From Perkinsus olseni (Eukaryota), in assembly GCA_013115125.1 (NCBI GenBank), contig JABANN010000391.1, positions 1 to 33,121 of the forward strand: a DNA stretch of 33,121 bases. The letters run 5' to 3'. The notes beneath the pieces were generated by a model. That model was not told the DNA's origin, ran no database searches, and was given only the letters and a program-made list of their open reading frames with translations. Positions 7,528 through 27,300 of this stretch are shown piece after piece. Positions within the stretch are counted from its first letter, which is position 1. Every line of letters starts with the position of its first letter. Made by a program: the position numbers and the translations under genes.

Positions 7528-10213
7528 ATGCTCTCAGCAATGATGGCTTCCCTTGCTGAGTATCTTGACTCCCCCTTCGTTATCCAGAACACTGCGCAAG
7601 GGACTACTCTAGTATTCCAGGTAACGACTGGTTATAGTCGTTAAAGTAGCATAAATTTGCACTTGACAGATTTCTAGTGCCGTCACCTGGTTGCTGAGAA
7701 TCCTCATCCCTATCATCGTCACTGCGATCTACCTCAAGGTGGGGTTCATGACCTCTCCGGACTGCTGTCATCTCCGTCCTCAGCTCACTCAAGGCCGACA
7801 GTCGTCGGAGGCCCAGTCAGACGGTGAAGTGCCGCCGTCCACTGCTGATGATGATTTGTTGAATATTACTACGGTCAGTCCAGCCCAACCGAGACCCTTT
7901 GGAAGCCCTACAAGGAAAAGGGTAATGAGGAGGGGGGGATGACTCCTCATGCAGCCTCGCCACAGATAATACCACCCACAGCATCATCGCGATGCAGTTC
8001 TAGAGCCTCTCCAGCGCTCCGGGCTGTGCATCCGTCGGGAAGCAGCAACAGTCGAAGTACCCGGGCAACTTATCTCAAGCAACACCACCGTCCAGCTCAA
8101 GCGGTAGTGTCATCACAGTGGCGTGCAATGGCGATAGTGCTTGGGGTTTCAGGGCGAACAGCTGCGTGGGGAGCAACTAGATAAGGAGGATATACTCAGG
8201 AGCGCTACTGCCGGTAGCATTTGACCCGGGTTCAATCCCATCGGAGCGAATTATTGACTTTCAGCCGCTTCGGACCGCCCCACTGAGTTGGAAGGCCTTG
8301 GAACCTCCCCGCGCGCTACAGTGGTAGCTGCTGCGCGCAGCGTCGGGCAGCAGCAGCATAAGACGGGGGATAAGAAGTCGGCTGAATCACTGAAACGCGG
8401 TGGGTGGAGTTGCGCAGCGTATCTTGTGCGCACAGCGAAGATTCTTGAGCTCATGTTCTGGAAGGTGTTAAAACTGCGCCGCCACTCCCGCCTGGGTTCG
8501 GTTCTGTGAAGGAAGTTGGGAAGGGAGCAGGTGAGATGATATCTCTAAAGGACGCTCATGAGAGCACTGCGCAATGACTTGCCTAATTTTGTGGCGCGTG
8601 ACGATTTCTTTTACAAGGCGGGCAGTTCGTTGACCATCTGTCGGTGTCCCTAGGTATTTCGTTGAAGAACGAAGATGCGCGCAAGGCTCTACAATCAGCC
8701 ATTGACAACTTCCCAAGCGAGGTAGTCGCCCATCTGCGCGCGCCATCGTGATCGATTGCCTTATCGTGGGTAGGCATCCACTGTCTGCCAGGAAGTCTTG
8801 CAGTCCCTCACGTTGGCAGGGGTCATCATCGAGCCACAGACGTAGGCGGAGCGAAGAAATTTTATTCTGTTTCTTAACACTTTTCTTCTGGCAGCTATGA
8901 GGCTATGATCAGAGCAGCGGAAGTTTCCGGTGATACAGAACTGGCTGGCGTCCTCTTCAATGGTGTCAGTAGGACACGCCTCGAAATCTTGCAATCTTGG
9001 CTTTCCTTAACGTATTCTAGGCATCCTGGTCGATGGTGACAAGAAGGACGACCTCGGAGGAAGGAAATCGCCGGTGGAAGATGAAGACTCGTCGCAAAGG
9101 AGCGCGCCGGCTCCAGTGGAGGTGATACATAGAGGTCCCGGGTTCGATCCGAGCGGGGGATGTTTTTGTTCAGCTGCCGCAGACCCAGCCATTGGGTTCG
9201 CAGTCACCCCCTGGACTGTCGACAGCCGCAGCTAGCGCTGCTAACCCAGGGACACCATTGACGATAGTCCCGCAAGAGGAAAGCAAGGATCAGAAGCCTG
9301 AACCCATGAAGCTGAACGCGAAGGCTCCTGAGTTTGTTCCCGCTGGATACGGTACAGCCCCTACGACTAGGTGAGGCGATGGGGACCGGAAAATAGGGTC
9401 GAGGAAGTGCGATGAGTGAACTGAGACAACGCCGGAAGTGGGCTCTGTGGTCGTGTCGAGATTGTTGTTGTGTGAGGTTCTTGGACTCTCTGATGGATCA
9501 CCGACGAGCAGTGGCGGCGGCGAGATATTATCAGAATCAGTTTATGGCAGCAAGATACATGGGCGGGGTAGTATTTTGGTATTGGGGTCTGGAGACCTCG
9601 GGTTCGAATCCTTGTCACGGCATCTTCATATTCAGCTGGCAGCGTTCGCTAAGGCTCAAATGCAAGCCGTGCAACTGGCCCAGGCCCAGGGAACGCATCT
9701 TTCACGCTATCATCCGAATGCTCCAAGTAATAGTATCTGGTCCCATGGGAAGGGAAGAGGTGGTTTAGGCATGCCGGTTATGGACGATGAGCAGCTGATA
9801 GACTGGGGCACTGCTGCTGCTACTAAGGCGGAGGAGGAGGCACAAGTACAGGGGGATGATGGGTTGGTCTGCTGGAGGGAAGGGGACTCCCAGGTACAAA
9901 TGCGGGTTAAGAAGATTATGGATGAGAGACAGAAAGAGTCGACTGAGGATCCTTCTAAGAAGGGTAGGGTCCAGGGATCGAACCTGGGTGGATGGATTAC
10001 CCTTGTTCAGCAGATAGTACATCCCAAGTCGAGGGGAAAGGCCTAAGCAACGACGCCGAATGTAAATGGTGATGGTAGCGCAGAGTATCCTGGCAGTTGA
10101 TTTTATTTCTAGGCAGCAGCAAGCCCGATGGGAGGCCGAATCAGCTCAGGGTAGCTGTGGCCGAGTTGAAGGAAGCGAGTCCTGAGAGGAAAAGGGAATT
10201 GCTCGGCATATAG
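7528..10213 (+). CDS. Multi-exon protein with N-terminal transmembrane segment and PAM2 (PABP-interacting) motif
   Basis: Exons join in phase across GT-AG introns (e.g. 7621-7669, 8214-8264, 8400-9020, 9122-9173, 9568-9635). Hydrophobic WLLRILIPIIVTAIYL segment; PAM2-like KLNAKAPEFVP at ~9310-9342; ends ELKEASPERKRELLGI* (TAG 10211-10213). Confidence 0.75.
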
Positions 10214-10623
10214 ATGTAGGCTTGTTTATAGGCGGAGCGAAGCGATGCATGTTTCGTCTTTTTGGTTTCAGATTTTGAAAACGTCAATGATTACTTGAAA
10301 AACCTCTGAAGTTCCTGTGAATTGCCAGCTGTTGAGAAAAAAAACCAAAAAAATTATGATGGATGAAAAGAACAGTTGTGTCCAGCAAATCTTTGCACGC
10401 ATGCGCATATTCTCGCGAGTGCGCATAGAAGGATATCTTGCGGACGACGCTGTAAGGAAGGGTTAAATGTTGATAGAGCAAACACGTAGAAAACATGTGC
10501 CTCGGTAACGTGTTAGACGGCTGCCTTGTGTTTATAGTTAAATCAATTATGAAACGGTTGATCGATTTTCCTATGAACGGGAATACAGTAGTCGGTTGTC
10601 TCTCCTGTCCGTTGGTATCCCTG

Positions 10624-12140
10624 ATGGCCGGCTCGACTTTGAGGTTCCCTCTTCCAGCTGCGTCGAGGAGGTTGAAGGAGTTGATGGTGTGCAATGACGT
10701 GGTTCTTGGTAGTACACTAAGGAAGGACAGGAGTGGTCCGGCGTCTCTGTAGGGAGCCAGTCCTTGGGCCGGCGAAAGGTTTTGGATGCCACTAATTGCC
10801 GTTATGTAGCGGCCATGGATCCGGGGATCGATGAGAAGGCTATCCGGGCTGATACTCCGGAGGTAGCTCATCGAGCTTATGCTGCCTGCTAGGGAGTGAA
10901 AATCTTTCATGGCGCGCACGGCGAAGATTTGGTGGTGTTGTTGGTTTTTAGGATACTTGTGTTGCGATTGCGTGTGGGAAGGCTGACGTGTTGGAGAGCC
11001 GACTGAAAGGCATGGATGTTGTGCTTTTGTGCGCGGACCAGGTACGTAAAATACTGCTGTCGTCGAGCCAGGAGGGGAGGGGCTGCATGCCTCGTCCTGA
11101 TTGGATAGGAACTATTCGGGATGGATGACAATTACATTTGATGAGAGTGCCTGTGAGAGATAACACTCCCTGGTTCGTAGGAGTGGTGTGCGGATAGCTA
11201 TCCGAAGGTCCCGGGTTCGATTCCGGCGTCCTGCAGGTTGCTGTCTGCGAGGACGAACTGCGGGAGAAGCCGGAGAGCGCAGAAGAGGCGAGGAGGTGGT
11301 AAAAGTCGACGAGCCTTGGAATGAATATTTACAGGATCGTGATTGTCTTTAATGAATTTTGGTCCGGATGATGGCGTTTTGCCGAGAGTGATAATGAAGT
11401 AACGTTCTGGGGAACCTTCCGTCCATGTTACCTGTGAGTCAAGGTGGTAGTTGAGTATTGTTACCATTTTCCACTTATGGGGTTGGCCGTGGAGCTTGTC
11501 CTATTTTTCGTAGGTTCATGATGGATTATTCTGGAGGGGAGGGAGTGATCACATGGACGGCTGTCGTAGTAGTTGATTGCCTTAATGGGAGGAGAGAGGT
11601 TGGACGACATAAGGCTGTTACGTGGTAGTGTAACATCGGGGCTCCACTCGTCTTAGTGTCGTCGTCCAACTTGTTCGGTCCGCATGTGGTTGATTCATTG
11701 GTGCGGGGGTTCATGCTTCCCTTCTTTCTGATCGACCTGCCGTTGCCGTCTGCCGTGTTTGCATCTTCAACTTCGGATCTTCGGTCTTCTCCCACAGTGG
11801 CTGATCTTCAGCTGATAGACCATGGTTCTGTTTAGTGCGGCGGGATAGGTCTGTATGCGATGGAGTTGGAGTCGAAGTGTGCACAGGTTCGATCCTATCC
11901 CCGAGGATGTGATTGATAATATTCTGTCGGACCCCGGCAGTTTGGTTTACCGATGTGCGGGAAGCTTCTGCGTGGATGACGTCATGGGGCCGGTGGGTGA
12001 CTGGTTAGCGTCTTGAAATCTTGCTCCACCTCAAGTTTTCTCAGTTTGTGAAGAGTATCGAAGGAGGTAGCGATAGTGTTATGGGGCTACCTCTAGGGAT
12101 ACTAGAGGAATTACTCAAGAGAGTCCGTCCGCTGCCATGA
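10624..12140 (+). CDS. Maf-family nucleoside-triphosphate pyrophosphatase (7 exons)
   Basis: Spliced translation VVLGSQSLGRRKVL..PGIDEKAIR..IACGKA..LLCADQVAV..REKPESAEEARRF..YSG..CAGSF..IEGGSDSVMGLP matches Maf motifs. Introns 10709-10752, 10863-10951, 11042-11236, 11296-11513, 11625-11886 and 11993-12035 are all in phase. The start could be the in-frame ATG at 10495. Confidence 0.9.
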
Positions 12141-26323: not shown

Positions 26324-26754
26324 CATGAGTGGTGACACGAGCAGTTTCTGAAGATAGCCTTTCTGTTGGCTTCAATAAGTGAATATGAATAGCACAGCAT
26401 TAGTTAGCACTGCTGACTAATGCTGACACTGCTGACTCAGCAGTCAGCAAGAGGAGGTTGACACTTTCCGTACTTGAGTGACTGAAGATCATGATTGATC
26501 ACCACGCACGAAGGTCATTGAAAAGACAACCCTGAGAAATTTCACAGGAGAGAGTTGCATTATTAAGTTGCTGCACTCTGGAAATGACCAATCTACTCGA
26601 TGACGATATTCCCCCACCCCCACCCTCTGGTAAATGAACTTCCAACACCACAACAATAAGAATAATCAAGAGGATGTCGCTGCTTCCTAGCCAACTTGGA
26701 CTCTATTGCTGTTCACCACGCTTTGCAGTTGCTCCACTACCAGCTCGATAATGT

Positions 26755-26970
26755 TTATCGGTACCTGTGATGTTGATAATGGAACGAAGAGCATATGTAT
26801 TAGTATTATTATTACTTGTGGAAGCCAATATCGTTGGCCTTCTCCCTGAAGCACTGACGGCACATCATGAGGCCGTACTTGCGGATGAGACCGTGCTGGT
26901 TGGAGCAAACACGGCACTGACGGGAACCAGGGCCGAAGTTACGGGGGCGAGTCATGTAGAGATCCGGCAT
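26755..26970 (-). CDS. RPS29: 40S ribosomal protein S29 (uS14)
   Basis: [54 protein letters not shown], with one intron at 26765-26815. Confidence 0.98.
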
Positions 26971-27300
26971 AGTGGATTAGTGTTGGCTAGCGAACTCTCT
27001 GACAATGACAATGCCACCCAACCTACTTCGTATCTGACACGCTCCAACCTCAGATACCACCGTTTTACCTCCCTCGAGTGGAGCCTCGCGAGAATGCACA
27101 AGCAGTACGTGCCGAATACAACCCTCCGTTCCCCCAATGGCCTTCTGATCCCAATTGTGACCGACCAATCCTCCCAGCGAGCATTCGACCTCTCAGAGGG
27201 CCTCTGAGCACGCCCAGAAACATGCCGATCGATTGCGCTATAGCGGCACGGGAGCGTTGAGGAAATGCAAGCTTTCAAGATTCTTCAAGACTCTCACGAC

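What the first reader, a model, noticed from the sequence alone, without database searches (positions are those of the whole stretch)
8984..27282. Second conserved intronic motif family: GCGTTGAGGAAATGCAAGATT(T)CAAGA
Seen: a ~30-nt motif with an internal CAAGATT doublet in introns of PAP (16380), LARP7 (17522), the 21 kb gene (21278) and the helical-repeat gene (24148). Inverted copies lie in introns of the PAM2 gene (8984) and Maf (12010), and one copy is in the RPS29/RMD1 divergent gap (27253). There is about one copy per gene, in both orientations, and flanks are unrelated. Inference: a protein-binding DNA element or the footprint of a MITE/introner. The roughly one-per-gene spacing is odd for random TE debris.
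Basis: partly seen in the sequence, partly recalled or inferred. Interest (0 to 1): 0.75.

Follow-up and report, generated by a model that had tools for sequence, protein, structure and literature searches.

The report
Conserved DNA motif in Perkinsus introns
A 30-letter DNA word sits in tiny introns, between genes and even inside coding parts of a shellfish parasite's genome, clusters in patches with other such words, and is kept in the same introns in related species, so it is most likely a landing site for a DNA-binding protein rather than leftover jumping DNA.

Summary
The motif is real: (A)GCGTTGAGGAAATGCAAG-N3-5-GCAAGAT, 132 exact 16-mer copies in a 39.9 Mb Perkinsus genome (reversed control 0). 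Six window copies are strong; the Maf copy is weak. It is sharply bounded, has a variable spacer between conserved CAAG modules, lies on either strand of its gene, and has unrelated flanks with no target-site or terminal repeats. Proteins that read through introns show it kept in 3 of 3 orthologous introns that could be read, including P. marinus (host protein 66% identical), while flanks differ. 'One per gene' is only local: 5 copies in 365 kb sampled blind, none at 12 proteasome loci. Copies cluster in roughly 10-25 kb patches with B-box-like and other motifs, often starting where co-directional gene runs diverge. Best reading: a purifying-selected DNA-protein binding site, one word of a vocabulary that marks chromatin domains. 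Binding, binder and function are not shown. Earlier scan notes on other pieces of this genome read such intronic motif sets as introner or tRNA relics; the ortholog evidence argues against that here.

The parts
8986..9014 (-). Motif copy, antisense, in inferred 58-nt intron 8963-9020 of the PAM2-containing gene
   Evidence: 30.8 bits; intron inferred from GT-AG and frame
12011..12048 (-). Weak copy (CAAG doublet, decayed head) at the 3' end of intron 11993-12044 of the Maf-like gene
   Evidence: 9.0 bits; intron seen as an RNA joint in 4 of 4 runs
16379..16416 (+). Motif copy with three modules in PAP intron 16363-16422; kept in the orthologous intron of a related genome
   Evidence: 31.8 bits; RNA joint in 4 of 4 runs; P0004 read-through LRNCKIC
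17522..17551 (+). Best copy, in in-frame 57-nt intron 17517-17573 of the La/RRM (LARP7-like) gene; kept in the orthologous intron of a related genome
   Evidence: 44.9 bits; P0002 read-through ALRKCKICKM; intron inferred
21278..21306 (+). Motif copy filling most of inferred 44-nt intron 21275-21318
   Evidence: 39.4 bits; splice signals
24146..24174 (+). Motif copy in inferred 57-nt intron 24137-24193 of the helical-repeat gene
   Evidence: 41.1 bits; frame continuity
27253..27290 (+). Non-intronic copy with three modules in the divergent gap between RPS29 (ATG 26970, minus) and the next gene (ATG 27330), about 40 nt before that ATG
   Evidence: 38.7 bits; RPS29 Pfam match
7394..28470 (.). Motif-rich patch: this motif plus about 20 B-box-like GGTTCGATCC sites, CTTCGCTGTGCG sites, ATCGATCA..GG.GCGC sites and others; few or none in 1-7390 and 28600-33121; positive GC skew

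Best explanation
The motif is a double-stranded DNA binding site for a sequence-specific protein, under purifying selection across Perkinsus species. Anatomy (shown): a 14-bp head, GCGTTGAGGAAATG, then two to four CAAG(AT) modules repeating every 8-10 bp, with free spacer letters between modules. Inferred: the modules, about one helical turn apart, are contacted from one face of the DNA by a multi-domain or oligomeric factor with a flexible linker. In a gene-dense genome the site is parked where it costs least: mostly in introns of about 45-60 nt that it nearly fills, sometimes in promoter gaps, sometimes spelled by codons in tolerant coding stretches. It is one word of a vocabulary (B-box-like sites, CTTCGCTGTGCG sites and others) that co-clusters in a few hundred patches of about 10-25 kb. 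Most likely role (inferred, weakest step): an architectural or general regulatory factor that, with TFIIIC-like partners, keeps open or delimits chromatin domains, often at the start of long co-directional gene runs. Odds: binding site about 0.75; given that, transcription or boundary domain about 0.55, replication origin or SMC loading about 0.3, centromere about 0.1, other 0.05.
For: Ortholog retention in 3 of 3 introns that could be read: LARP7-like gene (P0002, ALRKCKICKM, shifted in frame, different tail), PAP (P0004, LRNCKIC behind an unrelated longer 5' flank) and a P4-ATPase in P. marinus (P0005, 66% identity, retained-intron peptide VGGILLSCISSTAHGQ = the antisense motif at the same junction as L002). 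Best back-translated scores 44.9, 26.4 and 42.7 bits, reached by 0, 1 and 0 of 1500 null peptides. Specificity: the two introns read through in P0003 keep their own different motifs, and another retained intron in P0005 shows no motif and little likeness. Information falls to about zero beyond 3 nt upstream and past CAAGAT; 36 of 41 sites have a second exact CAAG at spacer 4, 5 or 6 although the search did not ask for it. Both orientations: 15 sense, 18 antisense among intron-like calls; host introns do not fold (z -0.10 to 0.87, 6 of 6). Probable coding copies on both strands (L003, L014, L022, L123, L065), and RNA contigs from elsewhere share only the motif stretch (loose ends at 17521-17551). 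Clustering: 28 of 100 listed hits have a neighbour within 5 kb against at most 3.3 expected; 25 of 88 copies of a second motif lie within 10 kb of this one against at most 5.6; per-stretch counts correlate, rho 0.70.
Against: No binding, footprint or binder is shown. The ortholog evidence is three cases read through protein, not DNA; two come from unnamed contigs of a close relative, and the PAP case is borderline against the null. A fourth query (L005) returned only a spliced protein and was uninformative. My splice classifier barely separates motif sites from controls (33 of 72 against 91 of 275), so the intronic share is not measured. Coding status of the exonic copies rests on open frames, not RNA. 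The link to divergent strand switches is partial: C715, C1048, C2630, C2833 and C365 fit, but switches in C36 and C58 carry no motif, and this motif shows no clean gradient from the switch; those patch contigs were chosen because they held hits. An ancient mobile origin of the word is not excluded.
Confidence: 0.72

Rival explanations
1. Relic of an introner or MITE wave: a short mobile element inserted in either orientation, created tiny introns and has since decayed neutrally.
For: Many copies nearly fill 44-60 nt introns; both orientations; introners are common in the related Amoebophrya (PMC7789003, passages read); earlier scan notes read similar motif sets this way; the neighbouring B-box family does look like tRNA 3' ends.
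Against: No shared flanks, no excess of direct or inverted end repeats (43 and 187 of 200 shuffles reach the observed values); 132 perfect 16-mers beside zero-information neighbours and free spacers is not uniform decay; offsets from splice sites vary; retention in P. marinus with changed flanks; copies outside introns; no match in viral or metagenome collections.
Confidence: 0.08
2. Domesticated transposon end: the word began as the subterminal repeat of a DNA transposon, spread by it, and is now kept because a domesticated transposase or other host protein binds it. This differs from the best explanation only in origin.
For: Short iterated modules with an 8-10 bp period resemble transposase-bound subterminal repeats (recalled); patchy distribution could reflect an old insertion preference.
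Against: No parent element among the sites examined; the transposase-like stretch at window 4683-5900 carries no copy. No TE library could be searched.
Confidence: 0.1
3. RNA-level element: an intronic splicing signal, a small RNA, or a pairing site between introns.
For: Most clear copies are intronic; in antisense orientation the word is pyrimidine-rich and often lies near the 3' splice site.
Against: Sense and antisense copies are about equally common; no Rfam match below E 1 in the window; no fold; absent from most intron-bearing genes sampled; present between genes.
Confidence: 0.06
4. Centromere-defining sequence: each motif-rich patch is a regional centromere or pericentromere.
For: Bounded patches with distinct base composition and B-box-like sites, reminiscent of tRNA-flanked fission yeast centromeres (recalled).
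Against: A rough estimate of 270-350 clusters is too many unless fragmentation inflates it strongly; two patches can lie on one contig (C2713, C146); patches are full of expressed genes.
Confidence: 0.04

Closest known systems
Extra-TFIIIC (ETC) sites of yeast and mammals (PMC12409998, passages read)
   Same: Short conserved DNA words outside their usual promoter setting, proposed to act as barriers or insulators; B-box-like words co-cluster with this motif.
   Different: This motif is not a B-box, is about 30 bp with iterated modules, sits mostly in tiny introns, and comes with several other motif families.
General regulatory or architectural factor sites such as yeast Abf1, Reb1 and Rap1, and animal CTCF (recalled, no paper read)
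   Same: Long, orientation-free, conserved sites; bipartite layout as for Abf1; hundreds of copies.
   Different: No sequence likeness tested; those sites lie mainly in promoters or between genes, whereas these lie inside gene bodies, in patches; the binder is unknown.
Introner elements of Amoebophrya, Micromonas and Aureococcus (PMC7789003, passages read)
   Same: Repeated sequence inside short introns of unrelated genes.
   Different: Introners have inverted and direct repeats at the intron ends, family likeness along their length and are strain-specific; here only an internal word is shared, ends are unrelated and the word is kept between species.
Strand-switch domains of trypanosomatids and co-directional gene blocks of dinoflagellates (blocks: PMC7789003 passages; trypanosome chromatin marks recalled)
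   Same: Long co-directional gene runs (up to 38 kb called) with a distinct domain often beginning at the divergent switch.
   Different: Those domains are known from histone marks, not from a vocabulary of long conserved sequence words; here not every switch has a patch.

Membership tests
Introner element | Inverted repeats at the two ends and short direct repeats at the boundaries | tested here: not met
   No excess of direct or inverted matches between the 25 nt on either side of the motif at 41 sites; tested around the motif, which reaches the intron ends only in the short introns
Introner element | Family likeness over the whole intron, fixed position of splice sites | tested here: not met
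   Flank identity 25%; information about zero outside the word; offsets from the donor of about 3-25 nt in short introns
Introner element | Lineage- or strain-specific presence | tested here: not met
   Same intron and motif in P. marinus and in an unnamed relative
MITE or DNA-transposon end | A longer parent element with terminal repeats and a transposase | tested here: inconclusive
   None among 41 sites, none in viral or metagenome collections; no eukaryotic TE library was available
ETC site / Pol III B-box | B-box consensus | tested here: not met
   The motif has no B-box; the B-box-like family is a separate co-clustering word
snRNA promoter element or 5S internal control region | Presence upstream of U6 or U2, or inside 5S genes | tested here: not met
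   0 of 4 U6 loci, 0 of 1 U2 locus; 0 of 2 5S-like loci, which are weak matches, and 0 of 2 rDNA loci
Intronic structured RNA or snoRNA | Rfam match, conserved fold, sense orientation | tested here: not met
   No match below E 1, no tRNA, no fold in 6 of 6 introns, both orientations
Cis-acting DNA binding site | Sharply bounded, orientation-free word with position-specific conservation | tested here: met
Cis-acting DNA binding site | Conserved at orthologous positions while flanks diverge | tested here: met
   3 of 3 readable introns, by protein read-through
Cis-acting DNA binding site | Occupied by a protein in vivo | not testable with these tools
   No chromatin data were available
Centromeric element | One domain per chromosome | tested here: inconclusive
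   Rough estimate of 270-350 clusters in a 3353-contig assembly

The most novel reading that the evidence does not exclude
Perkinsus, the sister lineage of dinoflagellates, organises its genome with a sequence-encoded domain code: a few hundred patches in which many tiny introns each serve as a cassette for one protein-binding word from a small vocabulary (this motif, B-boxes and at least five more), kept across species and written into codons where no intron is available, to define where transcription domains, boundaries or origins form along co-directional gene arrays. The introns would be kept for their DNA content rather than for splicing.
Probability: 0.35. Interest if true: 0.88.

Novelty: new variant of a known kind. 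Interest (0 to 1): 0.72.

Why it matters
Gene control in dinoflagellates and their relatives is often described as mainly post-transcriptional (PMC7789003, passage read), and how their co-directional gene arrays are set up is open. A conserved, long, information-rich DNA word with hundreds of mapped sites, plus a co-clustering vocabulary, offers a direct handle on that question in the closest sister lineage, and a reason why some tiny introns persist. It also corrects a reading within this scan: at least this family, and in one ortholog the B-box-like and AAGTAGCATAAA words too, look selected rather than being introner or tRNA debris. The listings from seven full-text searches and the four papers read in passages showed no description of this motif. 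Subscription papers, including the Perkinsus genome papers, are largely outside the library, and no supplements were examined.

Tried and rejected
Rfam and ARAGORN on the window: nothing relevant. Exact-pattern scans of viral and metagenome collections: 0 each, so no DNA of other Perkinsus species was obtained. 'Housekeeping genes carry it': rejected, 0 of 12 proteasome loci (one locus scanned per contig, 12 of 23 fetched). snRNA promoter, 5S control region, rDNA element: rejected. Regular spacing: rejected (CV 0.95). Pfam on 150 patch ORFs gave only 11 hits (helicases, kinases, TMA7, TMEM18, a phosphoribosyltransferase, an endonuclease/phosphatase), too few to define a gene class; the matching control set was listed but not scanned. 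A splice classifier was too unspecific to count intronic copies. Binder search: a gene with six C2H2 fingers (C2630) has a copy about 40 nt before its ATG and a second finger gene (C3057) has one in its coding frame, 2 of 4 C2H2 loci; but C2630 lies in a patch anyway, its structure and Atlas hits are generic zinc fingers, a recalled finger code does not predict the motif, and it may be TFIIIA by exclusion. Kept as a lead only. AP2 domains were found on two contigs and not examined further. The representative-library search with L005 returned one spliced Pex16-like protein, which confirms that intron but says nothing on conservation. The overdispersion test on the blind sample alone was not significant (p 0.66, 5 hits); the clustering claim rests. 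Low-scoring look-alikes at 8794-8809 and near 30595 were not counted.
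Full report
Setting. The window is a whole contig (G000:C2670) of a 39.9 Mb, 3353-contig eukaryotic genome. The rDNA spacer carries primer sites I recall as Perkinsus, P. olseni-like; the only named protein relative found is from P. marinus; earlier scan notes also call the genome P. olseni. RNA contigs show short GT-AG introns (15 of 76 joints displayed).

Is it there? Yes. A 16-mer with up to 3 mismatches gives 7 window matches against 0.41 expected. The exact 16-mer GTTGAGGAAATGCAAG occurs 132 times in the genome (78 plus, 54 minus) and its reverse 0 times; a version demanding a second CAAG gives 140 against 0. 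A matrix trained on 76 sites has the consensus AGCGTTGAGGAAATGCAAG, 3-5 free bases, GCAAGAT, with no hit at 18 bits in 1.18 Mb of shuffled DNA. Six window copies score 30.8-44.9 bits, partly in-sample; the Maf copy scores 9.0. The PAP and Maf host introns are RNA joints in all four runs laid. The others are inferred.

Anatomy. At 41 non-redundant exact sites, information is 1.5 bits at -1, 0.65 at -2 and near zero beyond; 36 of 41 have a second exact CAAG after 4, 5 or 6 bases (24, 7, 5), the spacer letters vary freely, and 17 of 41 have three or four modules by a looser rule. Upstream flanks are 25% identical on average. Direct and inverted matches across the motif are no longer than in shuffled pairings. 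This pattern of constraint is expected of a multi-contact protein site. It is not what a decaying insertion leaves, where 132 perfect cores would drag conserved neighbours along. Host introns do not fold better than shuffles and nothing in Rfam matches.

Where it sits. About 21 of 72 sites fall, by my count of the list, in clear introns of 44-60 nt that the motif nearly fills, in both orientations; among all intron-like searches are sense and 18 antisense. The classifier is weak (33 of 72 against 91 of 275 controls), so no exact intronic share is claimed. A spliced protein confirms one antisense case (L005). Non-intronic copies exist: about 40 nt before an ATG in the RPS29 divergent gap, and likewise before a zinc-finger gene on C2630. 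Several copies lie in long open frames that read like protein: RVEEMQESKK and SVEEMQDSKI in helical stretches, NLANLASLNG antisense in a BMT5-like/zinc-finger gene, five weaker copies in a KGKG-repeat protein. RNA contigs from elsewhere match only the motif at 17521-17551 in 3 of 4 runs.

Orthologous conservation, the key test. No DNA of relatives was reachable, but gene callers sometimes read into introns. Four queries were made; three gave read-through. (a) P0002, 89% identical over the LARP7-like exon, continues SNNRALRKCKICKM: the motif in another frame, after a longer 5' flank, with a different spacer. (b) P0004, identical over the PAP exon, continues GGLGNRKWSVWNLRNCKICRDSKIF, with an unrelated, longer flank. 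(c) P. marinus Pmar_PMAR023602 is 66% identical to the P4-ATPase frame of L002 and contains KLQ-VGGILLSCISSTAHGQ-DGVP at the junction where L002 has a 46-nt intron with an antisense copy; ILLSCISST is the antisense reading of the motif. Best synonymous back-translations score 44.9, 26.4 and 42.7 bits; 0, 1 and 0 of 1500 null peptides reach them. As internal controls, the two introns read through in P0003 keep their own words (QGSNL for the B-box-like site; FYA.F for TTTTATGCTAC) while the rest differs, and a second retained intron in the P. marinus protein shows no motif. A coding copy in the same ATPase (TIEKMQESK) is only partly matched in P. marinus (VDNAQESN). Limits: three cases, seen through protein, two from unnamed close relatives.

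Distribution. 'One per gene' fails. A blind sample of 37 stretches (365 kb) holds 5 hits and none with two, implying about 550 copies genome-wide with wide error; 0 of 12 proteasome loci, 0 of 5 snRNA loci and 0 of 4 5S-like or rDNA loci carry it. Copies cluster: 28 of 100 listed exact hits have a neighbour within 5 kb against at most 3.3. A second word, CTTCGCTGTGCGCA (116 copies, 58 per strand, control 1), was mapped independently and 25 of 88 copies lie within 10 kb of this motif against at most 5.6. Across 10-kb stretches the count correlates with the other motif families (rho 0.70), with stronger GC skew (0.45), lower GC and higher CpG ratio; part of that set was chosen for holding hits. 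Patches span roughly 10-25 kb, gaps inside them look random (CV 0.95), and a rough capture estimate gives 270-350 clusters. Genes run co-directionally for up to 38 kb; five patches begin at or straddle a divergent switch, but switches on C36 and C58 have no motifs and this motif peaks 10-25 kb from the switch rather than at it. That link is suggestive only. An AAGAT half-site recurs in the second word and its tail, which hints at a shared partner.

Mechanism. Shown: bounded word, free spacers, both strands, several genomic contexts, clustering with other words, retention between species. Inferred: a protein binds it as DNA; modules 8-10 bp apart are read from one face; the patches are chromatin domains set by several factors, TFIIIC plausibly among them given the B-box-like sites (ETC sites act as barriers in yeast; PMC12409998, passages read). 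Whether the domains serve transcription, insulation, replication or SMC loading is undecided; I favour transcription or boundary domains. The six-finger C2H2 gene on C2630 is a candidate binder only by position.

Comparison and novelty. It fails the introner tests as defined for Amoebophrya (PMC7789003, passages read) and is neither a B-box nor an snRNA promoter. It works like a general regulatory or architectural factor site (recalled comparators), but sits inside gene bodies in tiny introns. Passages read in two Perkinsus papers (PMC3101222; PMC9399869) mention no such motif; the other papers were seen as search listings only. A sequence look-up in this scan's notes found nothing; related notes on other pieces favoured relic readings. 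Verdict: a real, selected cis-element, new variant of a known kind, interest 0.72.

Noticed in passing
window 8229-28470 (about 20 sites, e.g. 9141, 11214, 13637, 17674): B-box-like GGTTCGATCC family resembling tRNA 3' ends, both orientations. The copy in intron 17652-17697 is kept in the orthologous intron (P0003, QGSNL), which argues for selection on this family too.
   Followed up: partly
window 8427, 10913, 16571, 17352, 23985; genome-wide: Third word AAATCTTCGCTGTGCGC, often followed by AAGATA or GTATCTT; 116 exact 14-mers, co-clustering with this motif.
   Followed up: partly
window 17809-17822, 28754-28766, 7642-7653; L119:1301: Word TTTTATGCTACTTT; appears kept in the orthologous intron in P0003 although the rest of that intron differs.
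   Followed up: partly
window 7398, 8738, 16188, 18908, 19640; 8587, 13477, 16075; 17002, 28192: Further recurring words: ATCGATCA..GG.GCGC, TTTTGTGGCGCGTGA, CTCGTGCAAGATAC, and AAATTT(T)CCG(A/G)AA-like runs; mostly inside the patch.
   Followed up: partly
L119:595-2205 (G000:C2630): Six-finger C2H2 gene, the only one with closely linked fingers among 4 C2H2 loci found; motif copy 40 nt before its ATG and a first intron of about 750 nt packed with other words. Possibly TFIIIA.
   Followed up: partly
L065:3435-4472 (minus): 346-aa KGKG-repeat frame whose repeat unit (ALGKGKGWQDEQD-like) spells weak copies of the motif five times.
   Followed up: partly
window 17517-17573: The intron is 57 nt, in frame and stop-free, so retention would add 19 residues inside the RRM; annotation pipelines may mis-call it.
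   Followed up: no
window 4480-6100: Broken transposase-like (MULE-type by eye) stretch just upstream of the patch; no Pfam hit for the ORF tested.
   Followed up: no
window 1-70 and 31800-31865: Long (TTG)n microsatellites near both ends of the contig.
   Followed up: no
L115, L116, L117: Three of four U6 genes have several B-box-like sites upstream on the opposite strand, reminiscent of tRNA-dependent U6 promoters in trypanosomes (recalled).
   Followed up: no
window 29862-29961: 44-nt inverted repeat (73% complementary, 12-nt loop) outside the patch.
   Followed up: no
L018 and L019 (G000:C365:48.5 kb and 53.4 kb): Inverted local duplication carrying the motif and its flanks: the one case of shared flanks among the first 30 loci.
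   Followed up: no
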